64,000 bases of DNA from a virus. Position 1 is the stretch's first letter. Every line of letters begins with the position of its first letter. Below, piece after piece: positions 20,700-48,217 of this stretch. The notes under the pieces are model-generated. The model was not told the origin of the DNA. It saw nothing but the letters and a program-made list of their open reading frames with translations, and ran no database searches. Made by a program: the position numbers and the translations under genes. Location of the stretch: the IMG/VR virus record IMGVR_UViG_3300032286_001614, positions 7,746 through 71,745 of that record; one strand, written 5' to 3'.

Positions 20700-23600
20700 T
20701 TACCTAGCAAAGAAAAAAGTAAAAGTCTGAGAAGTATCTTCTTTTGGTAATGTTTGAGATTCTAAATAAATACGCAAACACCAATTAGCTAACATTAAAG
20801 ATGAGAAATTATCTTTTTTCGCTCTAGTTTTAGAAGTGCTTCTTTTCATTGATGACGGAAGATCAAATGATTGACTGCCACTTGGAGTAGAAGTCACTTC
20901 TATTAATGCACATTCTTTTTTAGTTAAATCTATTAAGAAATCTTGATGCTCAATAAAAGAATATACACTCTCTGAATTTCCATTAGAATCTTTAAAATAT
21001 GGATGAGTGTCTAATATGTTTGGTTTAAATTTAGACATTTCATCCGCTAATCCATCAACGGCACCAGCTTTTCCTGCGAATAATATGTTTTTGTAATCTA
21101 TACATGCTTGCAAATACTCAGCCGCCATTCTTTGCCAAGAACTTGAAAAGCCTTGTTTATGAACGATTCTTCTAGCTTGTAAATTATAACTCTTGGCTAC
21201 TTGTTTAGATATATCAGTTTGATCGTTCTTATTGAATTCAGCATCAATATCCCTAAGTTCTATACCAGAATCTTTAAATAATTTAGTTTCATTAGCTTGT
21301 GCCGTAAATTCATTATCGCCTTGGCTGGCATCAACACCAATATAGACAATATTAAAATTTGTTAATATATAATGCAAGTAAGCAACGTGGTCTTTATGTG
21401 CTCCCCCAGCTACAGCATACGAGTGAACTAACATACCTATTTTTCTATCACCTTTATCTACAATTTTTAGAACAGACATTGCAAAATCATCAGAAGCCTC
21501 TCCGCTTGATAAAGAAATATCTATACCTAAAACATATTCAGTACCTTTTTCACCAACAATCTCAATACAAGGTCTCTGACCGTCTGGAACTGTGCATTCA
21601 GCCATTTTAGATGCTTTAAAATATCCAGAACTGTCAGATACGAATATTGCACCATATTCTCTATCAACAACATTTTGTGAAATATCTCCACTTTCCACAT
21701 CTTTAATTATACCTGGATCTAACAAATCTTTTGGAATAGCTTTGTAACTAACTTGAGTAACGCTATATGTTGCAACTTTAAGGTCTTTTTCCTCGAAAGT
21801 TTCAATATTTTTAAGATATTGTTTATAAACCTTAAATAAATCCTCCCATTGATAAGAAGCTGAACTTAACAAAATCATTTTAGAAGTAGAGGCGAAAATT
21901 TCCCTATCCTCTTCTCTCATGAATCCACGCGAAATCAATTTATCTTCTAATTCACGTAGTTGAAGCTTTTCTTTGATGTTACCACCACTTACTAAGAATG
22001 GTTTAAGAATGGTTTCTATGATACCAAGACTTAATAATAAAGCTTCGTCAATGATTAGTCTTGAGCAGCGTAAACCTCTTAACCCTTCGCCACCAGATAA
22101 TGGAACAGCTGTAATTGTCGAACCATTAATAAAGGTATATTTAAATATATCATTTCTACGAGAAAGATCACCTTCAAGACATTGTTTGAAAAGAACACCT
22201 TCTGGAGAATTAGATAATTTCTCTAAATTTTCAAGTATTCGACGACTAGAACGAAAATTTTGACTTACAATAAGAGTATGAGTTCCGGGATTAAAAATGC
22301 AATCCAATACAGCCCATAATCCAACTAATGTGCTATTATGGTTTATAAATCCATTAGACCAATACATTTCACCGTTTGGAACATTAAAGTCTAAGCAATC
22401 ATGATCAAAATCCTCTATCTCCACAACTTCATCAAAAAAGAAATTTTCTTTTTGAATTTCAAGTAGATTTTCATATTTTTTTTCATCAAATCCAGCTTTT
22501 TTAGCAAATTCTAAATAATTAGCTAAAGTACTGTAAGACAAATGTTTTTGATTTTTTGTGCGCCTGATATTATTACGCCATTCGTCAGAAAGAGCTTTGG
22601 GTAATCTTTGTCCTGCTTTAATTTCTCGTTGGAAAAATTCTTTTGCACCGGGAATAACATCAATATTAGTGTTACGTTTTTTTTCTATATTTGCTCTTGA
22701 TTGTTTTCTGCTTAAACGAAAACCAATTTTTTTATTAAATATATCTACATTTTCTCCAGATATATCTATATACCAAGCTTTTCCAAAATTAGATAGTGTT
22801 TTTCTTTTATAAAATCTTGAAATAATTCCAAACGATAATAGACTTAAATGAATTTGCTTTACTAATTCTTCAGAAGTTGAGCAATAACTAATGCCCCCTG
22901 TTTTATAACATGTTCCATCCGTATCAAAAAGCCCCATTAAATAAAACTTTAAAGACTTCCTACATGCAAGAATTTTTTGCGGAATAACCTTATCGTAAGA
23001 AGTTGTTCTTTTTATGTTGTATTTATCAAATAACGGTTTAATTAATTTTGTCGAAAATTTTATATCAATTGCTTCAGATTTTTTCTTTTTTGTATAACTC
23101 ATAATCTCCCAATTATTATATACCCAATCAATAATCTCTTGGTCTATAGTTGTTAAACATGCGCCCGAAGATTTAGAAGTATAAGAACCGTCTCCAGCTA
23201 ACAATCCTAGAAAATAAGATTCTCTTTCTGAAAAATCACTAAAAGAATAGTTAATTTCGTTTCTTGAAATACATACTCTATCTCCATCTTTTATTTCCGA
23301 GAATTTTTTCCAAACTATAGAACAAGTTTGGAAGTCTAATACTTTGATTAGGTGATTAGTAGAGCCCTCAAGGAAATAACCATTGTTTGTTGTTACCCTT
23401 CTACATTTCTTTTTAGGCTGAATATATATTTTATCTGTTTTTTGCCAATCATTTCCATTCCATAAATAAATAGGATCAATATCTTTCCATCCCTCTATTT
23501 CAAAGGATAAATTTGGAAGCAAATCAGTTATTGTAATAATGCCAATATCTTTTGCAAGTAGTTTAGTGTTATTATGATAACTGAGCGTTTTGCCGCTACC

Positions 23601-23837
23601 CCTCCCCCAAACAGCTAAATTATAATTGCAATGAAACCAACTTTTTAGCAAGATAGCCTGACGAGGATGAAGTTTTACGCCGAATAAAATCTCAATCGTA
23701 AACTGAATATTATACATTAAGAATTGTCCAAGCCAATACTTTGCTTTTTCTTCATCAAGTTCTCCCTTGAATAAAGCTAATTCTTTATTTATATCTACTA
23801 TTCCACCTTTATCCCATTGAGGTTCAATCCAAGCCAT
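20700..23837 (-). CDS. terL: terminase large subunit containing an intein
   Basis: Walker A GRGSGK/ST split by intein, LRGLR and Walker B LIIDEA, nuclease VLGID..SDD, KDNFS. Confidence 0.92.
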   Translation of the reverse strand: MAWIEPQWDKGGIVDINKELALFKGELDEEKAKYWLGQFLMYNIQFTIEILFGVKLHPRQAILLKSWFHCNYNLAVWGRGSGKTLSYHNNTKLLAKDIGIITITDLLPNLSFEIEGWKDIDPIYLWNGNDWQKTDKIYIQPKKKCRRVTTNNGYFLEGSTNHLIKVLDFQTCSIVWKKFSEIKDGDRVCISRNEINYSFSDFSERESYFLGLLAGDGSYTSKSSGACLTTIDQEIIDWVYNNWEIMSYTKKKKSEAIDIKFSTKLIKPLFDKYNIKRTTSYDKVIPQKILACRKSLKFYLMGLFDTDGTCYKTGGISYCSTSEELVKQIHLSLLSFGIISRFYKRKTLSNFGKAWYIDISGENVDIFNKKIGFRLSRKQSRANIEKKRNTNIDVIPGAKEFFQREIKAGQRLPKALSDEWRNNIRRTKNQKHLSYSTLANYLEFAKKAGFDEKKYENLLEIQKENFFFDEVVEIEDFDHDCLDFNVPNGEMYWSNGFINHNSTLVGLWAVLDCIFNPGTHTLIVSQNFRSSRRILENLEKLSNSPEGVLFKQCLEGDLSRRNDIFKYTFINGSTITAVPLSGGEGLRGLRCSRLIIDEALLLSLGIIETILKPFLVSGGNIKEKLQLRELEDKLISRGFMREEDREIFASTSKMILLSSASYQWEDLFKVYKQYLKNIETFEEKDLKVATYSVTQVSYKAIPKDLLDPGIIKDVESGDISQNVVDREYGAIFVSDSSGYFKASKMAECTVPDGQRPCIEIVGEKGTEYVLGIDISLSSGEASDDFAMSVLKIVDKGDRKIGMLVHSYAVAGGAHKDHVAYLHYILTNFNIVYIGVDASQGDNEFTAQANETKLFKDSGIELRDIDAEFNKNDQTDISKQVAKSYNLQARRIVHKQGFSSSWQRMAAEYLQACIDYKNILFAGKAGAVDGLADEMSKFKPNILDTHPYFKDSNGNSESVYSFIEHQDFLIDLTKKECALIEVTSTPSGSQSFDLPSSMKRSTSKTRAKKDNFSSLMLANWCLRIYLESQTLPKEDTSQTFTFFFAR
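22335..23588 (-). mobile_element. intein (418 aa) with LAGLIDADG homing endonuclease
   Basis: Ends NGFINHN/S; LAGLIDADG motifs FLGLLAGDGS and YLMGLFDTDGT; removal restores GRGSGKST. Confidence 0.92.
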
Positions 23838-40295: not shown

Positions 40296-40449
40296 TTTGT
40301 TTTTTGGTTTTGATAGGTTGGGTTGACGAATAAGAACATACATCATTTACGGGTTAAAACAAGCTTTTTTTTTATTTTTTTAAGTATTATTTTTTTATTT
40401 TTTTTAAAAAAATGCTTGTTTTTTCCGATGGATATGCTATCTTATTATT

Positions 40450-40545
40450 CTAGTTAGGACTTATTCTCCTAGCGTGTGACGGATAAAACCGAACGATTGG
40501 GGGACCGGAGGCTGGACTAATTCCTCAAATTGCGGGCACGTTTGG
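40450..40545. ncRNA. putative small structured RNA, copy 1 (30-nt core 40484-40513)
   Basis: Core TAAAACCGAACGATTGGGGGACCGGAGGCT between convergent sigma70-like promoters; covarying stems. Confidence 0.55.
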
Positions 40546-40727
40546 AAAATTATAACATATTTTCCTTTTAAAGTCAAGCTTTTTTTAAAAAAAATTAATT
40601 ATTTTTTTATTGAAAAATAGTTTTTTATTTAAAGTCAAGCTTTTTTTAAGAAAAATATTTAGGGAAAAATTAACGCAAAAAAAATCCCACCCTAAATTAA
40701 TAGAGCGGGACTTGTTATTTTATTTTT

Positions 40728-41003
40728 TTAACAAAACTTTGCTTGAGCGGTCCGACCCGCAGGAATCCATTTTCCGTTATTTTTATTTAGGATAAAGATT
40801 CTTGGAATTCCCTGCTTTATTGCGGGAATAACTTTAACTTTTCCGAGAAAAGATTCTAGCGTGGAATATATTCCGGTAGGAATAAGAACTTCTTTTCCTT
40901 CCAAGTTAAAATCCTTTGGAAGTTTATTCTTATTCCCAGAAAGGATATAACGCAAATCTTTCATCCGAACCGGATATTTTGTGAAGGTTTTATAGTTTTT
41001 CAT
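40728..41003 (-). CDS. small early-type hypothetical protein
   Basis: Promoter-ORF-terminator cassette. Confidence 0.7.
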   Translation of the reverse strand: MKNYKTFTKYPVRMKDLRYILSGNKNKLPKDFNLEGKEVLIPTGIYSTLESFLGKVKVIPAIKQGIPRIFILNKNNGKWIPAGRTAQAKFC

Positions 41004-41142
41004 ATATTTTTGTGTTTTGGTTTTTGTTAGTGGTTAACTGACAATATATAATATGCTTTATTTTCAGGAAAAAACAAGCTTTTTTTTAAAAAAAAATAAA
41101 AAAAAATCCCACCCTAAATTAATAGAGCGGGACTTAGATTTT

Positions 41143-41487
41143 TTAACAATCAGAAGAAGATAATGCGCATACTATCAAACTATCTGTATTTTGTTTATAA
41201 AGTTTCCTAGCAAACTGCAACGCATCATAAGATTCGTATTTATTGAAACATTGAACTTTATATTTATAGTCAAAATATTCGTTATCGAAATAAATCTCAA
41301 CCGAAAATCCAGTAAGGGAATAATCTCCGATTGCGCGAACTTGAATAGTAAACTTATTCCAAACGTAAACTTCGCTATAATGATAATTTGAAGAATCAGA
41401 AACTTTATTTACCGAAAACATTTTATTGAATTCGGAAATAAAATCCGTAACGATTTTTTTATCTTCTTTCGTGAACTGAGGAATCAT
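41143..41487 (-). CDS. small early-type hypothetical protein
   Basis: Promoter-ORF-terminator cassette. Confidence 0.7.
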   Translation of the reverse strand: MIPQFTKEDKKIVTDFISEFNKMFSVNKVSDSSNYHYSEVYVWNKFTIQVRAIGDYSLTGFSVEIYFDNEYFDYKYKVQCFNKYESYDALQFARKLYKQNTDSLIVCALSSSDC

Positions 41488-41634
41488 AATTTTTATCGGG
41501 CTAGGGTTAATTTTGCTAGTTGGTTTTACTTAACGATAAATAATTTACCATATTTCTGGTAAAAAACAAGCTTTTTTTTAAAAAAATAAAATAAAAAAGG
41601 CGACTCTTTTTAGAGAATCGCCTTTTTGTTTTAT

Positions 41635-41826
41635 TTAAACTATAGTTTTCATTCGTAATTCACGAAGCTTATTTATCATTTCCGCCGCCGACACCCAATT
41701 ATTTTCTTCTCCGTGAAATTTACTTGAATTCAAATAAATGCAAATATTCGTAAGATCCTCTTGAATATCGTGCAATTTATTTTTTAGCTCTTCATTTTCT
41801 TTATTTAGGCGGGTGATATAGTTCAT
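41635..41826 (-). CDS. small coiled-coil hypothetical protein
   Basis: Promoter-ORF-terminator cassette. Confidence 0.7.
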   Translation of the reverse strand: MNYITRLNKENEELKNKLHDIQEDLTNICIYLNSSKFHGEENNWVSAAEMINKLRELRMKTIV

Positions 41827-41941
41827 GGTGGTTTTGTTGGTTAACGATAAATAAGATAACAGATACGTTACCTAAATCAAGCATTATTTTAAAAAAATAA
41901 AATAAAAAATCCGCTCCTTTTTATAGAAGCGGATATTTTAA

Positions 41942-42193
41942 TTAAACAAAAAATTCAAATTTTTTACCCATATAAGGGATTTGGTGAATAGCCCAACTCC
42001 ACCCTCTTTTATTTAAAAGACAAGTGGACGTTCTAGATAAAACAACTCCATCCATTATTTTGTTATCAGCTAATTTTATTTTTTGATATGTCAATTCATA
42101 TCCACGCTTTGGTAGATTTTTATTTATTTTTCCAGCAGCTTTATCTGAAATAGTATAAAAGCCAGAGTCTAAATATTTTGCGGTGAATTTCAT
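41942..42193 (-). CDS. small early-type hypothetical protein
   Basis: Start corrected to MKFTAK; own promoter and terminator. Confidence 0.65.
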   Translation of the reverse strand: MKFTAKYLDSGFYTISDKAAGKINKNLPKRGYELTYQKIKLADNKIMDGVVLSRTSTCLLNKRGWSWAIHQIPYMGKKFEFFV

Positions 42194-42336
42194 TTTTATA
42201 GGTGGTTTGGGTTGACGAATAAAACCATATATCATTTGCAGGCTAAATCAAGCTTTTTTTTAATTATTTTAATTATTTTTTTTATTTTTTTTAAAAAAAC
42301 ACTTGTTTTTTTCTATTAGTGTGCTATTCTATTTTT

Positions 42337-42432
42337 CTAGTCAAGGTTTATTCCCTTGGCGTGTGACCGATAAAACGGAACGATTGGGGGACCGGAGGCT
42401 AGACTTTTTTTTTAAAATAAAAAATAGTTTGG
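42337..42432. ncRNA. putative small structured RNA, copy 2 (core 42371-42400)
   Basis: Core TAAAACGGAACGATTGGGGGACCGGAGGCT; same convergent promoter layout. Confidence 0.55.
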
Positions 42433-42533
42433 AAAATTATAACATATTTTTTATTTTAAATCAAGTATTTTTTTTATTTTATTTAAAAAATTTTCCCCAA
42501 CAAATTAATGTCGGGGAATCGTTTTTTTAAGAA

Positions 42534-42951
<418 letters not shown>

Positions 42952-43027
42952 GACGCTATAAATCTAGCAAATACGGCAGGTAAATCAAGCTTTTTTTAAT
43001 TATTTTAATTATTTTTTTTAAAAAAAT

Positions 43028-43285
43028 TTAAATTAATTCAATCTTTCTATATTCCAATTTAAACTGTTTAATTCCCTTATACTTTTCTTTTAACTTGGGA
43101 ATATAAGAATTCGCCTGTGCTTTTGTTTCAAATTCCGTGGCCAAACTCCATGCAAATTCGCACATAGAAAAATTTTGAGTCGGCGAATTAATAAAATAAA
43201 GATTACGGCGGCAATTAATATCTGTTTTCCCAATGATTGCGAAAACATATTTAAATTTTTTATTTCTATTTTTATTTTTACTCAT
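43028..43285 (-). CDS. small early-type hypothetical protein
   Basis: 85 aa with upstream GCTTGTTT..TGCTATCTT promoter. Confidence 0.7.
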   Translation of the reverse strand: MSKNKNRNKKFKYVFAIIGKTDINCRRNLYFINSPTQNFSMCEFAWSLATEFETKAQANSYIPKLKEKYKGIKQFKLEYRKIELI

Positions 43286-43374
43286 ATTTTTTTGCGGTTA
43301 ATGGTTGGCTGAATCTATAAGATAGCATAAACAACGAATTAAACAAGCTTTTATTTATTTAATTTTAATTAAAA

Positions 43375-44015
43375 TTAATTTTGCTGCAATATCTGGGTTA
43401 ACCTAAAACTTTTTAAGGCTGCTGCGTAGGAAATTAAATACAATTTCCCCCTTTAAATAAAAAGGGAGAAAAGTTATATTATTTACCTGAGTTAACCTTT
43501 TTTAAGGTGTGGTGAGGTTTCATTATATAGCAGGGCAACTTATGATTTTTAATCATTCAATATTTTATTTATCGCTCAAAACTTACCTCTAAAGCGCGAT
43601 TGATATTTTTAATTATCAAACGAAATATTGTCCTTATCCGTAGATAAAAGGTCGGGGGTCAGATATTTAAATTATTAATTTAAATTTTTGATTCATCCCT
43701 GCAATGGCATTTATTTATTATTAGCTACGCTAATTTAGTAAAAATAAAATAGTTTTTTAATTTTCCTAGAATTTGCATTTCGCAGGACTAGGGCACGAAG
43801 AAACTTAACTTCGCTGCATTATTTTAATGCCCTTGTAACTCTCCTTATCTTTTCAGCGCACCCGCTATCATCACGACATGAGGTTTAATTATTTCTAATT
43901 CGCTTACTTTCAGAAGTGCCTTCCAATTTTCATTGGATTGGACTTAATCTTTACAAGTAGATTGTTAAACAGTTAAATTAACCAAAAAGAACTAATTGAT
44001 CCCGAGTATCAATCA
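43375..44015 (-). ncRNA. putative large structured non-coding RNA (~640 nt), family not recognised
   Basis: No ORF of 60 aa or more; many nested helices, GAAA and cUACGg tetraloops on the minus strand, promoter at 44021-44050. Confidence 0.65.
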
Positions 44016-44057
44016 TAAGTATAATACACCTTATTCCTAATAAATGTCAAAGTTTTT

Positions 44058-44576
44058 TCAAATATTTTTAAGAATCTCTACATATTTTTTTCCCCTGCCT
44101 CCGGTTTGCTTATACCAGCGCGAATCTTTTAATTCCGCCGCCGCTTTATTATAATCTTTCTTTTCAATTGCCGCAGTAAAATCTTTGAATTTTTTAATTC
44201 TATTTGGCCCCAGATTGTAAGCTAGGCTTATTAATATTATTTGAACATTTTGTGGTTGCGAATTGAAAGATTTAAACTGTTTATGCGCAATCTGTTCTGC
44301 GATTTTTACATCCTCTTTTAACCATTTATTAAGTAAACAATTATCAATATTTTGCCCAACCTTATACTTATCTTGTAAACCCTTAGATTCTAAATTTGTT
44401 CCGCCACCAACAGTTTTATGTCCAGTCGGGCAAATATATACTTTATTGCTCCATCCTTCGTATTTAATAATATGCGTTTTAATATTATCGAATGAAGGCG
44501 CGGCATTAATAATAGACGCGCCGCCAATAATAATACCGATTGAGATAAGTTTAAGATTTTTATAGAATGTTTTCAT
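44058..44576 (-). CDS. lysozyme (GH24-like) with N-terminal hydrophobic segment
   Basis: KYEG...YICPTGHKTVGGG, AYNLG, AAAELKDSRWYKQ. Confidence 0.88.
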   Translation of the reverse strand: MKTFYKNLKLISIGIIIGGASIINAAPSFDNIKTHIIKYEGWSNKVYICPTGHKTVGGGTNLESKGLQDKYKVGQNIDNCLLNKWLKEDVKIAEQIAHKQFKSFNSQPQNVQIILISLAYNLGPNRIKKFKDFTAAIEKKDYNKAAAELKDSRWYKQTGGRGKKYVEILKNI

Positions 44577-44600
44577 ATAATTTATTTAATTTAACTTAAT

Positions 44601-44819
44601 TTATTCTGCGCGATAAATTTCCAAAGATTCCCACGATGGAATATCATAAGGGGAACAAACTTCCTTATTCCTTTCCTTACGAAATTGCATTTCCTTATTA
44701 TAACTTGCGCGACTAACAATAATATTTCCGCCGCCGCCATAAGGCAAAAGACGAACTTCTTTAGAAACAACTCCGTAGTCATCAATAAAAGAATTGATGG
44801 TTGATTTAATATTTTGCAT
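44601..44819 (-). CDS. small hypothetical protein
   Basis: 72 aa in operon with lysozyme. Confidence 0.65.
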   Translation of the reverse strand: MQNIKSTINSFIDDYGVVSKEVRLLPYGGGGNIIVSRASYNKEMQFRKERNKEVCSPYDIPSWESLEIYRAE

Positions 44820-44832
44820 ATGATTCGTTTTA

Positions 44833-45033
44833 TTAATTGGTGTGATTCAAGAAAATTTTATATCCTTTATTATTAACAAGAATTTCCACTTCCTCACTCG
44901 TTACTTGCGAAATGCTCGCAAAGTTTCCAGCAAGTTTCCTAGAAAGATTCTCGGCGAGAATAATATCTTTAGAATTAATAACTTGAACAAAATTCCCGAA
45001 GGAATGATTTACTGCGAAGTAATAATTTTTCAT
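44833..45033 (-). CDS. small hypothetical protein
   Basis: 66 aa, promoter at about 45065-45095. Confidence 0.65.
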   Translation of the reverse strand: MKNYYFAVNHSFGNFVQVINSKDIILAENLSRKLAGNFASISQVTSEEVEILVNNKGYKIFLNHTN

Positions 45034-45295
45034 AACGATGTGGTTTTAAGTTAACTGAGCCAATAGAATACGTTAAAATTAGGTATTATTCAAGTAAATA
45101 ATTAAAAAAAATTCATGCCTTAATATTGACTTACGTAATTTTGCAAATTAATTGCGTTTTAAAGTTTACCTATGAAAAAGTGTTTTTTTTCACTGGGTTT
45201 TAATAAAACCGAAAATTACGTAAGTCATTTAGATTTTTTTTAATTTTCTTTAAAAAAAAGCTTGTTTTCTTCTTTGGATATGCTATCTTATTTCC

Positions 45296-45420
45296 ATCGA
45301 CAGGACTTGTAAGGGGCCAAATTAATGAAACCCCATCTCTCCTGAAAGATTTGACCTTTAAAACGGAACGATTGGGGGACCGGAGGCTACGCAAATTTCT
45401 TGGGGCACAAGCCCGTTTGG
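45296..45420. ncRNA. putative small structured RNA, copy 3 (core 45359-45388)
   Basis: Core identical to copy 2; first stem CAGGA/TCCTG expanded with a GGGG/CCCC insert. Confidence 0.55.
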
Positions 45421-45445
45421 AAATTTTACCACAAAAAAACTTTAA

Positions 45446-46096
45446 TGTCAAGCTTTTTTTTAATTTTTTTTCTGAAATAAAAGAATACCCCTTCCCGCCC
45501 TTGGGAAAATATATTATTCCTAGAGCTTGTCAAGCCTATTTTTAAAAAAAATGATACGTATTAATACGTATTTTTAAATAAAAAAAATGCTTGACTTATT
45601 TATAATTAACTATATATGCGAATTTTCAAATAGTGATTTTTTAAAAAAAGTCAAGAATAAAATTAATTATTTTTTTAACCTAAAGATCAGCCCCAGCCCC
45701 ACCCTGGAAAAATATACTATTTTGCGTAAATGTCAAGCATATTTTTTTATTATTTTTGCGCTTATATTTATTATTTTTATTAATGTCAAACATATTTTTT
45801 AAAAAAAATTTTGTTTATATTTATTATCTAAATTATTGTCAAGCATTTAATTAAATTATTTTTTAAGAATTAAGTCCGCCCCAGCCCCACCCCGGAAGTA
45901 AATCATAAAACGGTTTGCTTGTCAAGCATATTTTTTATTTATTTTTTTTATTTTTTTAAAAATTATCTTGACATTATTATTATTTCTGTTATACGCAAAT
46001 TTAATGAAATTGCGCATTTTAACACAAAATTTAATAAAAGTCAAGCAATTTTTAAATTATTTTTTGCCTTATATATTATTATAAATTAATGTCAAA
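45446..46096. promoter_or_regulatory. array of TTGAC/GTCAA sites with A/T tracts and C-rich boxes
   Basis: About 11 TTGAC(A/T) hexamers on both strands, no credible ORF. Confidence 0.65.
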
Positions 46097-46653: not shown

Positions 46654-47857
46654 AACAATCTTTCTTTTTTTATATATAGGTTAATAATAACAAATCCAAT
46701 TTTTTAAAAAATCGCACAAATTGGTTAAGCGGAAAAATAATAATAACAGGCGCAGGAATTTTTTAAACCCTATCCCAGCGCATTCGACTTTCAAAAAGCA
46801 AACCTAGCATGGATAACGAAGTAATTTTCCGCGTTATGGTCAATCTTTTTTTTAAAAAAAACATGGGTATTTCTACTTAGAAAAATATGTCATTTTACCT
46901 CTGAAAAAACATCATTTTAAGCATCATTTTTAATAGGGGAAATATGATAAAAAAATATATAATATTATGTTTTAAAAAATGAGATAATAAATAGAAATGA
47001 ATGCCATTACCCTCCCCCCTCTCAATCTTTATTTATTTATTTATTTGTCGTTTATATTTCATTAATATTCCATGAGTATTTTATCTATTCCCTATTGTTA
47101 TTTCCCCCTATATATTTATCTCATTTGTTTTATTGTCTATATATAATATAATTGAATAGAGTGATTTATTTGTTATTTTTATGTTGTAATAATTATGTTT
47201 TAATTAAATCAAATAATTACATAAATCTCTTACAATAAGAGTTATATAGAAATTATTTGATTTAATATTTTTGTTCAATTTTCCTTTGATTTATTTGCTC
47301 AAATTTTGAGCATATTATAGCATAAAAAATGAAGCACAAATGAGTAAAAAAAATGAATAAAAAAAACGACTAAAATTAAGTAAGAATTTGCCGTTCTAAA
47401 TGTCCCATTTTATTAAGTGATAATTCCAAAATTATATTGTAAAATTAATATTTATTTTTGATTTACGATAATAAAATTCATTATTTTAGTGTAAATGAAA
47501 TCCGCTGATTATTTGCCATTTAATAATTTCAATAATAACCTTAATAGTTAATTTTGCAAATAATCTTATCGTTTATTAAACTTAGCTTTTTTTATTTATA
47601 AAATAGCCGATTTTTAGCCTTCTGAAAGTAGGGTCTGAAAATGGCAATTTTTGCCTCATTAAATGCCCGCAAATGGTGTTTTAACGCATTAAAAAGGTGC
47701 AAGGGTAGTCTGGACTAGGTTAAACGCTAGAAAACGCGCCAAAACGTAAGGAAAATGCTTATTGAGAACGTGTCTCATCTAAGGGTAAAAAAATATATAA
47801 ATAAAAAAATCCACCCGATTTATGGATGGATTGTTTTATGTTAAACTATTATCTTTT

Positions 47858-48217
47858 TTACTGCTTTAATGCAATTTTTATCTTTTTAAGAGTTTCTTCC
47901 TGAAGTAAATTATAATAAGAACTTTTATAAGATTCTGAACCTTGCATATAATATCTAACTCCCTCCGGCCAACCAATAACACGGTCAAAAAACATTTGAT
48001 AAACACGCTCAGTAACTTTTCCAGTAACTTTAGAAACTTTATTCGCGCTATTTAGTATCTTATTGAATGCTTCGTAACCATTAAGATCGGGCTTTTCTAA
48101 ACATTCAATCAGCCTAGCGATAACTTTTCTATCGGCTTTATTGATATATTCCGGCGTATCCCATATGGTTTTACGGCATTGCTTTTTGTAACAATAAAAA
48201 GAAGATGAAAGGCTCAT
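47858..48217 (-). CDS. hypothetical protein
   Basis: 119 aa, terminator at 47803-47833. Confidence 0.7.
   Translation of the reverse strand: MSLSSSFYCYKKQCRKTIWDTPEYINKADRKVIARLIECLEKPDLNGYEAFNKILNSANKVSKVTGKVTERVYQMFFDRVIGWPEGVRYYMQGSESYKSSYYNLLQEETLKKIKIALKQ

What the first reader, a model, noticed from the sequence alone, without database searches (positions are those of the whole stretch)
43375..44050. Unrecognised ~640-nt highly structured ncRNA downstream of the lysozyme gene
Seen: an ORF-free stretch packed with helices. On minus: CCAAT-GAAA-ATTGG (43923-43936), AATTA-GAAA-TAATT (43887-43900), TTATC-TACG-GATAA (cUACGg, 43634-43647); AGGGCA/TGCCCT (43790-43833) enclosing two hairpins; long-range GCAGGG/CCCTGC (43530-43702) enclosing CAATATTT/AAATATTG and further stems; TCTCCCTTT/AAAGGGGGA with a G-U pair that works only on minus. 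Upstream are TTGACA (44045-44050) and the late GTGTA motif (44025-44029). I found no RNase P or tmRNA hallmarks and no convincing intron core. Known: phages carry large ornate RNAs of this size class (ROOL, GOLLD). Inference: a new or divergent large phage ncRNA, possibly expressed both early and late.
Basis: partly seen in the sequence, partly recalled or inferred. Interest (0 to 1): 0.85.

Follow-up and report, generated by a model that had tools for sequence, protein, structure and literature searches.

The report
ORF-less promoter-to-terminator cassette in phage
A 700-base stretch without any gene, sitting behind a phage lysozyme gene, is a dispensable module that probably makes a non-coding RNA, but the evidence that this RNA is exceptionally structured is only modest.

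Summary
It matches no known RNA family: Rfam gave 0 hits at gathering score and only noise at E<=10. It is not a decayed gene. Six read-through frames hit 0 Pfam or PHROG families, and there is no codon-usage signal.

New here: the stretch is a discrete 700-nt module (43353-44052, minus strand). It is present in one close relative (L083, 13 differences). It is cleanly absent from two others (L084, L085), where the lysozyme stop abuts the next gene's promoter. It begins with a near-consensus sigma-70-like promoter and contains a terminator-like hairpin about 575 nt downstream.

It diverges about 3-fold less than third codon positions of its neighbours (p=0.009). One hairpin carries a compensatory change.

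"Highly structured" is overstated:
- Fold z is -2.2 to -2.7 on minus and no better than on plus.
- Local z-scores are ordinary.
- Another non-coding stretch nearby scores -4.5.

No expression data and no divergent homologues were obtainable. Verdict: a plausible new accessory phage ncRNA gene, unproven.

The parts
43353..44052 (-). The 700-nt presence/absence module. It runs from just after the A-run behind the lysozyme stop codon to the A-run before the next gene's promoter.
   Evidence: It is present in the window and in L083, and absent in L084 and L085. Junctions were read from alignments A2, A3 and A4. There are 13 differences in 700-703 nt between the window and L083.
44021..44050 (-). 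Sigma-70-like promoter P1: TTGACA, an 18-nt spacer, then TATTAT. It overlaps the GTGTA motif at 44025-44029.
   Evidence: It matches 11 of 12 consensus positions and is the best of 15 promoter-like sites in 42500-44700. It is identical in L083, with no difference between 43973 and 44052. Function is inferred from consensus only.
43436..44016 (-). Predicted non-coding transcript of about 575-580 nt, from just downstream of P1 to the U-rich tract after the terminator hairpin.
   Evidence: Its ends are inferred. The RNAalifold consensus has 179 pairs: 1 compensatory, 1 kept with a one-sided change, and 0 broken. No RNA data were available.
43444..43471 (-). Terminator-like hairpin with an 11-bp stem that includes a G-U pair, a 6-nt loop, and a U-rich tail.
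   Evidence: One search reports it on the minus strand only. It is identical in L083.
43796..43813 (-). Hairpin CGAAG / CUUCG with an 8-nt loop. It carries the only compensatory change: A-U at 43811/43798 becomes G-C in L083.
   Evidence: Differences are listed. Pair probability is 1.00. Pair 206/219 has both sides changed. The same allele is seen in contigs of runs X2, X4 and X5.
43923..43936 (-). GAAA-capped hairpin with a 6-bp stem.
43887..43900 (-). GAAA-capped hairpin with a 5-bp stem.
43634..43647 (-). UACG-capped hairpin; the stem counts 7 bp when G-U pairs are allowed.
43319..43346 (-). Promoter P2 of the next gene (TTGTTT, 16 nt, TATCTT). It belongs to a repeated promoter family and marks the 3' boundary of the module.
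   Evidence: The pattern has 7 matches in the window against 2.16 expected; 4 of them lie at 40416-45289. It is conserved in all four sequences. It matches two other places in the genome.
44058..44576 (-). Upstream neighbour: phage lysozyme gene (172 aa).
   Evidence: Pfam PF00959, E 6.8e-13. PHROG endolysin families also match.
43028..43285 (-). Downstream neighbour: an 85-aa ORF with no known family.
   Evidence: No Pfam or PHROG family. Its codon-usage score is positive. It is conserved in L083, L084 and L085.

Best explanation
The segment is an accessory, ORF-less transcription module in the variable small-gene region of an uncultured freshwater phage. A host-type (sigma-70-like) promoter directly behind the lysozyme stop codon drives a non-coding RNA of about 575 nt. 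The RNA ends at an intrinsic-terminator-like hairpin, and the next gene's own promoter follows.

The RNA is predicted to fold into a chain of mostly short hairpins, three of them capped by GAAA or UACG loops, closed by a few long-range helices. It most likely acts in trans as an RNA, for example as a regulator or as a decoy for a host factor. It is not essential, because close relatives lack it.

The module was gained or lost as one unit by recombination at the -35 regions of the two flanking promoters, which share AAAA(A/G)CTT.

Shown: the non-coding nature, the module boundaries, the presence/absence pattern, the lower divergence, and one compensatory pair. Inferred: transcription, the transcript ends, the fold, action in trans, and the recombination mechanism.
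For: - Non-coding: no ORF. Six read-through frames gave 0 Pfam and 0 PHROG families at E<=1. Best-frame codon-usage scores are all negative (-3.2 to -17.1), against means of +3.7 to +15.0 for seven neighbouring or control genes.
- Transcription signals: an 11-of-12 promoter match at the 5' edge and a hairpin plus U-tract about 575 nt downstream, both on the gene strand. Both are identical in L083.
- Discrete module: present in 2 of 4 related loci. In L084 and L085 the lysozyme stop is followed directly by the next promoter.
- Shared by descent: in the lysozyme 5' part, the window and L083 differ at 10 of 426 sites. Each differs from L084 and L085 at 23 of 426.
- Constraint: the element has 13 differences in 700 nt. 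Third codon positions of the flanking genes have 12 in 228, and first plus second positions have 7 in 456. Fisher p is 0.009 for the element against third positions.
- Structure: the A-U pair at 43811/43798 becomes G-C. One further change keeps its pair as G-U. No predicted pair is broken, and 8 of 11 substitutions fall in unpaired columns of the consensus fold.
- Folding: minus-strand z is -2.68, with 0 of 100 shuffles as low, against -0.95 and -0.04 for coding controls.
- Strand hint: 3 tetraloop hairpins on minus and 0 on plus.
Against: - No RNA data of any kind were available.
- Only two near-identical alleles exist in everything searched, so covariation rests on a single pair.
- The consensus fold was fitted to both sequences. 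In the window-only fold, two substitutions (43749, 43485) would break predicted pairs.
- Fold z is modest and is as good or better on the plus strand. Local z-scores are ordinary. A different non-coding stretch scores -4.48.
- Three tetraloop hairpins in 577 nt also occur at two other places in the window, both under listed ORFs.
- The promoter pattern is not enriched in the window: 3 matches against 1.81 expected. Terminator-like sites are not enriched either: 3 overlapping calls against 1.7 expected.
- The low divergence could reflect recent exchange rather than selection, because the flanks are mosaic.
- Absence from close relatives shows the element is dispensable.
Confidence: 0.45

Rival explanations
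1. Non-functional filler. The segment is the remains of a former gene module, or spacer DNA, that is on its way to being deleted. The hairpins are what AT-rich sequence gives by chance.
For: - The element is absent from L084 and L085 with no visible consequence for the neighbouring genes.
- Fold statistics are modest and not strand-specific.
- The tetraloop count is matched elsewhere in the window.
- The region is a mosaic in which modules come and go.
Against: - No protein-family trace in any of six frames, and no codon-usage patch.
- Divergence is about 3-fold below third codon positions of the neighbours (p=0.009).
- One compensatory pair and no broken pair in the consensus fold.
- The promoter and terminator are perfectly kept in both alleles.
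Confidence: 0.25
2. A cis-acting transcription-control module rather than a trans-acting RNA. It would be a long structured 3' extension of the lysozyme message, plus a terminator that insulates the next gene, plus an extra promoter. The sequence between would matter little, or only for mRNA stability.
For: - No terminator-like site lies between the lysozyme stop and the element, so read-through would enter it.
- The only terminator-like hairpin lies near the module's 3' end.
- The region is rich in repeated promoters.
- PeSL cassettes, which combine a promoter and a terminator, are known drivers of such indels in T4-type phages (abstracts of PMC2839356 and PMC4122927).
Against: - An insulator needs tens of bases, not 575.
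- The constraint extends over the whole 700 nt.
- A compensatory change lies in an internal hairpin far from the promoter and the terminator.
Confidence: 0.2
3. An ORF-less mobile element in its own right, such as an intron-like or retroelement-like sequence that inserted into the A-run behind the stop codon.
For: - Clean presence/absence, with A-runs on both sides and an A-rich 3' end.
- Divergence rises sharply in the flanks next to both junctions: 19 differences in the last 93 nt of the lysozyme gene and 6 in the 64 nt after the module, against 13 in 700 inside it.
Against: - No group I or group II intron model, nor any other Rfam model, matches even at E<=10.
- No terminal inverted repeats were seen among the inverted repeats listed.
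- There is no second copy in the 71.7-kb record, in 552 kb of held loci, or in the collections scanned.
- No reverse transcriptase was found among the window proteins scanned.
- The lysozyme tree fits a single gain or loss.
Confidence: 0.05
4. A divergent member of a described large RNA class such as ROOL, GOLLD, OLE, HEARO, RNase P, tmRNA or a self-splicing intron.
For: The size class and the phage context resemble ROOL and GOLLD, which the abstract of PMC12286853 describes as large ornate bacterial RNAs (search listing). Their link to phages is my recollection.
Against: - 0 matches at gathering score across the whole window.
- The best of 8 sub-threshold matches is a 19-bit microRNA model at E 0.62.
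- ARAGORN finds no tRNA or tmRNA.
Confidence: 0.03

Closest known systems
Modules bounded by PeSL cassettes (promoter-early stem-loops) in the hyperplastic regions of T4-type phages (Arbiol et al. 2010, PMC2839356; Comeau et al. 2014, PMC4122927; abstracts read)
   Same: - It is a variable region of small non-essential units.
[quoted passage not shown]
- Insertions and deletions between close relatives have end points at these regulatory sequences. Here the indel ends at the -35 regions of two promoters, and one of those promoters belongs to a repeated family.
   Different: - This phage is not shown to be T4-type; its terminase is at most about 26% identical to any cultured phage.
- The terminator hairpin and the next promoter lie about 95 nt apart rather than forming one compact cassette.
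- The microhomology is only about 8 nt.
- The module carries no ORF at all.
Large ornate RNAs found in phages and prophages: ROOL and GOLLD
   Same: - Length of several hundred nucleotides.
- Phage-borne.
- No associated ORF.
- Many hairpins, some GNRA-capped.
   Different: - No match to any Rfam model. That ROOL and GOLLD are among Rfam's models is recalled, not checked.
- No multi-sequence conservation or covariation is available.
- Fold z-scores are modest.
- There are no tRNA genes nearby. The usual tRNA neighbourhood of those RNAs is recalled.
Phage 'morons': accessory units with their own promoter and terminator inserted between two genes (concept recalled from the lambdoid phage literature, not read here)
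   Same: - It is inserted precisely between two genes that are adjacent in relatives.
- It has its own promoter-like and terminator-like signals.
- It is dispensable.
   Different: Morons as described carry a protein gene. This unit has no coding capacity.

Membership tests
Any Rfam 15 family (recalled to include ROOL, GOLLD, OLE, HEARO, group I and II introns, RNase P, tmRNA, 6S) | Scores at or above the family's gathering threshold with its covariance model | tested here: not met
   There were 0 matches in the whole window at gathering score. At E<=10 on 43200-44150 there were 8 matches of 14.6-20.6 bits, against gathering scores of 38-80.
tRNA / tmRNA | Cloverleaf or tmRNA architecture detectable by ARAGORN | tested here: not met
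   0 genes in the window.
Decayed protein gene (for example a free-standing homing endonuclease) | Residual similarity to a protein family, or residual codon bias, in some frame | tested here: not met
   Six frames read with X at the stops gave 0 Pfam and 0 PHROG families at E<=1. All 20 sliding windows have negative best-frame codon scores.
PeSL-bounded module (T4-type hyperplastic region) | Strong sigma-70-like promoter at the module boundary | tested here: met
   P1 matches 11 of 12 positions at the 5' boundary. P2 lies at the 3' boundary and is conserved in 4 of 4 sequences. These are consensus matches only; activity was not tested.
PeSL-bounded module (T4-type hyperplastic region) | Promoter joined to a stem-loop terminator as one small repeated cassette | tested here: inconclusive
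   The P2-type promoter is repeated: 4 copies at 40416-45289, with matches. However, the terminator-like hairpin at 43444-43471 lies about 95 nt before P2 and is not part of the repeat.
PeSL-bounded module (T4-type hyperplastic region) | Indels between close relatives end at these cassettes | tested here: met
   The empty sites of L084 and L085 join the lysozyme stop to P2. The filled sites carry P1 at that point. AAAA(A/G)CTT lies at both junctions.
PeSL-bounded module (T4-type hyperplastic region) | Host phage is a T4-type myovirus | tested here: inconclusive
   The large terminase finds only distant matches of 22-26% identity in 91 of 50,697 phage records. The lineage is unassigned.
Structured functional ncRNA (generic) | Statistically supported covariation across divergent homologues | not testable with these tools
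   Only two alleles, 98% identical, were found. They show one compensatory pair.
Structured functional ncRNA (generic) | A discrete transcript | not testable with these tools
   No RNA run was available to lay. All four runs laid were DNA contigs.

The most novel reading that the evidence does not exclude
A previously undescribed family of large (about 575 nt) phage-borne structured RNA. It is carried as a stand-alone promoter-to-terminator gene that is shuffled as a module among freshwater phages. It has a defined multi-domain fold built on GNRA- and UNCG-capped hairpins and a function in host takeover or counter-defence.
Probability: 0.2. Interest if true: 0.6.

Novelty: new member of a known kind. 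Interest (0 to 1): 0.3.

Why it matters
If the transcript exists and folds as predicted, it would add an RNA-only accessory gene to the small-gene region of an uncultured freshwater phage lineage. Such regions are normally read as collections of orphan proteins. It would also show that the module shuffling known from T4-type phages moves non-coding genes as well.

As it stands, the value lies in the correction. The stretch is an optional module with modest structural signal. It is not a demonstrated ornate RNA.

Tried and rejected
- Known RNA class: rejected by Rfam at gathering score and at E<=10 and by ARAGORN.
- Alternative genetic codes opening a frame: codes 4, TAG=Q and TAA=Q give nothing convincing.
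- Decayed gene: no family in six read-through frames and no codon signal.
- Homologue hunting that found nothing:
  - blastn 'distant' against 50,697 phage records.
  - Exact-motif scans of viral contigs and genome contigs.
  - Lysozyme as a single query in viral contigs gave 78 loci, all at 48% identity or less and mostly 26-34%. None of them holds the element by nhmmer.
  - The lysozyme alignment in viral contigs gave 29 pattern matches and 0 relatives.
  - The DUF2201 protein gave 7 pattern matches and 0 relatives.
  - The 85-aa neighbour gave 58 pattern matches and 0 relatives.
- Sequencing runs: 6 runs were listed and no RNA holder was listed. Four DNA-contig runs were laid. They showed only the L083-type allele inside the element, and '7 more' variant rows were not shown. 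No contig spanned the empty site in these runs. Parts without cover are not evidence.
- Earlier scan notes: the look-up by sequence returned only notes on this same window and one unrelated genome. The 'relatives' scope returned nothing.
- Partner proteins: no reverse transcriptase, RNA-guided nuclease or RNA-binding family was found among the window proteins scanned.
- Tetraloop enrichment looked significant against shuffles but is not unique in the window.
- A 16-nt perfect complement between 43674-43689 and the end of the 85-aa ORF (I6) was set aside. It is an AT-rich near-palindrome.
- Replication origin: rejected for this segment because close relatives lack it.
- Supplements of the papers were not opened.

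Full report
**Setting.** The window is bases 7746-71745 of a 71.7-kb virus record that CheckV rates as 47% complete. It has about 29% G+C, and nearly all its genes lie on the minus strand. The large terminase finds only 22-26% identical matches among 50,697 phage records, so the lineage has no cultured relative. The finding lies in a stretch of small genes and many promoter-like sites. Upstream is a lysozyme gene at 44058-44576 (PF00959, E 6.8e-13). Downstream is an 85-aa ORF of no known family at 43028-43285.

- 43310-44060 is the longest part of the window without a stop-free frame of 50 aa on either strand.
- No start-codon ORF of 30 aa lies inside it. The longest stop-free run is 46 aa, on the opposite strand.
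- Recoding TGA, TAG or TAA opens no convincing frame.

**Is it more structured than chance?** Only modestly.
- The tool's z of -4.68 rests on 20 shuffles.
- With 150 shuffles of 43440-44013, the minus strand gives z -2.19 (2 of 150 as low) and the plus strand gives -3.61.
- With 100 shuffles of 43375-44020, minus gives -2.68 (0 of 100). Two coding controls give -0.95 and -0.04. Another non-coding stretch, 47200-47845, gives -4.48.
- In 120-nt windows the element is ordinary: 13 windows, minus-strand z from -2.25 to +0.22. The strongest local signals lie outside it, near 42400-42600.
- Three GNRA/UNCG hairpins with stems of 5 bp or more occur on minus and none on plus, against 0.26 in shuffles (4 of 1000 reach 3). 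Two other places in the window, both under listed ORFs, also reach three.

**What it is not.**
- Rfam 15 gives no match at gathering score in the whole window. At E<=10 on 951 nt it gives only eight 15-21-bit matches to unrelated small models.
- ARAGORN finds nothing.
- The six frames, read through with X at the stops, match no Pfam or PHROG family at E<=1.
- A codon-usage log-odds trained on 36 long ORFs of the window is negative in all 20 sliding windows of the element (-3.2 to -17.1). Its mean is positive for the lysozyme gene, four small neighbouring ORFs and the terminase.
- The segment is therefore non-coding and carries no recognisable trace of a former gene.

**The new fact: it is an optional module.**
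- The lysozyme has relatives at 94, 93, 81, 73, 62, 63 and 50% identity in the protein collection.
- A scan of metagenome contigs with the lysozyme alignment returned three loci.
- L083 (95% lysozyme identity) carries the same element. L084 and L085 (92%) do not. In those two, the lysozyme stop codon is followed by an A-run and at once by the promoter of the 85-aa ORF.
- The unit is 43353-44052. At its 5' edge the sequence reads AAAAAC-TTTGACA. At its 3' edge it reads AAAAGC-TTGTTTA. The indel therefore joins the -35 regions of two promoters across an imperfect 8-nt repeat.
- The 3' promoter (TTGTTT, 16 nt, TATCTT) belongs to a repeated family. It has 7 matches in the window against 2.16 expected, 4 of them at 40416-45289, and matches.
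- This is the pattern described for PeSL-mediated module shuffling in T4-type phages (abstracts of PMC2839356 and PMC4122927). The cassette architecture here is looser, and the phage is not shown to be T4-type.

**History.** In the first 426 nt of the lysozyme gene, the window and L083 differ at 10 sites. Each differs from L084 and L085 at 23 sites. The two carriers are therefore sisters, and one gain or one loss explains the pattern. The last 93 nt of the window's lysozyme gene form a divergent patch, with 19 differences from L083 and 18 from L084. This shows recombination close to the junction.

**Signs of function.**
- Between the window and L083 the element has 13 differences in 700 nt. 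Third codon positions of the lysozyme 5' part plus the 85-aa ORF have 12 in 228. First and second positions have 7 in 456. The element differs from third positions with Fisher p = 0.009 and resembles constrained positions.
- The promoter (no difference between 43973 and 44052) and the terminator hairpin (no difference between 43353 and 43484) are identical in both alleles.
- In the RNAalifold consensus of 179 pairs, one pair (43811/43798, A-U to G-C) changed on both sides. One pair changed on one side and stayed paired. None is broken. Eight of 11 substitutions and the 2-nt deletion lie in unpaired columns.
- Caveats: that fold was fitted to both sequences. In the window-only fold, two substitutions would open predicted pairs. 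Low divergence could also come from recent exchange.
- Contigs of four public DNA runs showed only the L083 allele and added no further variation.

**Transcription signals.**
- TTGACA-18-TATTAT at 44050-44021 is the best promoter-like site in 42500-44700 (11 of 12). The hairpin at 43471-43444, with its U-rich tail, is the only terminator-like site there, and it is on minus.
- Neither class of site is enriched over shuffles. Their weight comes from position and orientation, not from statistics.
- GTGTA on minus is rare overall: 27 sites against about 70 expected from base composition. It often sits behind A-runs upstream of late-region genes. The copy at 44029 is the only one above 38.9 kb.

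**Reading.**
- Most likely (0.45): an accessory ORF-less gene for a non-coding RNA of about 575 nt that acts in trans.
- Rivals: inert filler or a dead module (0.25); a cis-acting terminator and promoter insulator with a long lysozyme 3' extension (0.2); an autonomous ORF-less mobile element (0.05); a divergent known RNA class (0.03).
- No partner such as a reverse transcriptase or an RNA-guided nuclease was seen among the proteins scanned.
- Expression and covariation, the two decisive tests, could not be run with the data at hand.

**Verdict.** The segment is a real, discrete, non-coding, apparently constrained module with no known family. The claim of an exceptionally structured, ROOL/GOLLD-like RNA is not borne out by the statistics. 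Interest is 0.3.

Noticed in passing
window 47149-47860 (also 46705-46962): This is a second ORF-free stretch of 712 nt. It is very AT-rich, at 18-22% G+C. Its fold z is stronger than the element's: -4.48 for 47200-47845 on minus, with 0 of 50 shuffles as low. It lies at the minimum of cumulative GC skew in 40-48 kb. It could be a replication origin or another non-coding RNA region.
   Followed up: partly
window 40355-40657, 42243-42476, 45346-45471; L083 1998-2232, 2884-3108, 4070-4370; L085 2495-2687: A dispersed repeat of about 200-300 nt, 71-90% identical between copies, recurs in the window and in the related metagenome loci. It coincides with the repeated TTGTTT...TATCTT promoters. The strongest local fold z in the scan is here: -5.34 at 42400-42519.
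   Followed up: partly
window 44058-44150: The last 93 nt of the lysozyme gene form a divergent patch. They show 19 differences from L083 and 18 from L084, while L083 and L084 differ at only 7. The stop codon is TGA, TAA and TAG in the three lineages. This is a recombination tract abutting the module.
   Followed up: partly
L084 2190-2750 and L085 2085-2650; L083 1587-2182: Downstream of the 85-aa ORF, the relatives carry extra sequence that is missing from the window. It includes another small ORF and a promoter followed by a G+C-rich segment. The whole neighbourhood is a mosaic of modules.
   Followed up: no
window 20700-23837 (minus): This 1045-aa ORF combines an N-terminal part that matches helicase/RecA-like annotated phage proteins (residues 68-505) with a terminase large-subunit part (residues 502-875). 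I did not examine this.
   Followed up: no
window, minus strand, 2049-44029: GTGTA is under-represented on minus: 27 sites against about 70 expected from base composition. Many copies follow A-runs in intergenic DNA just upstream of structural genes. This is compatible with a phage-specific late promoter element.
   Followed up: partly
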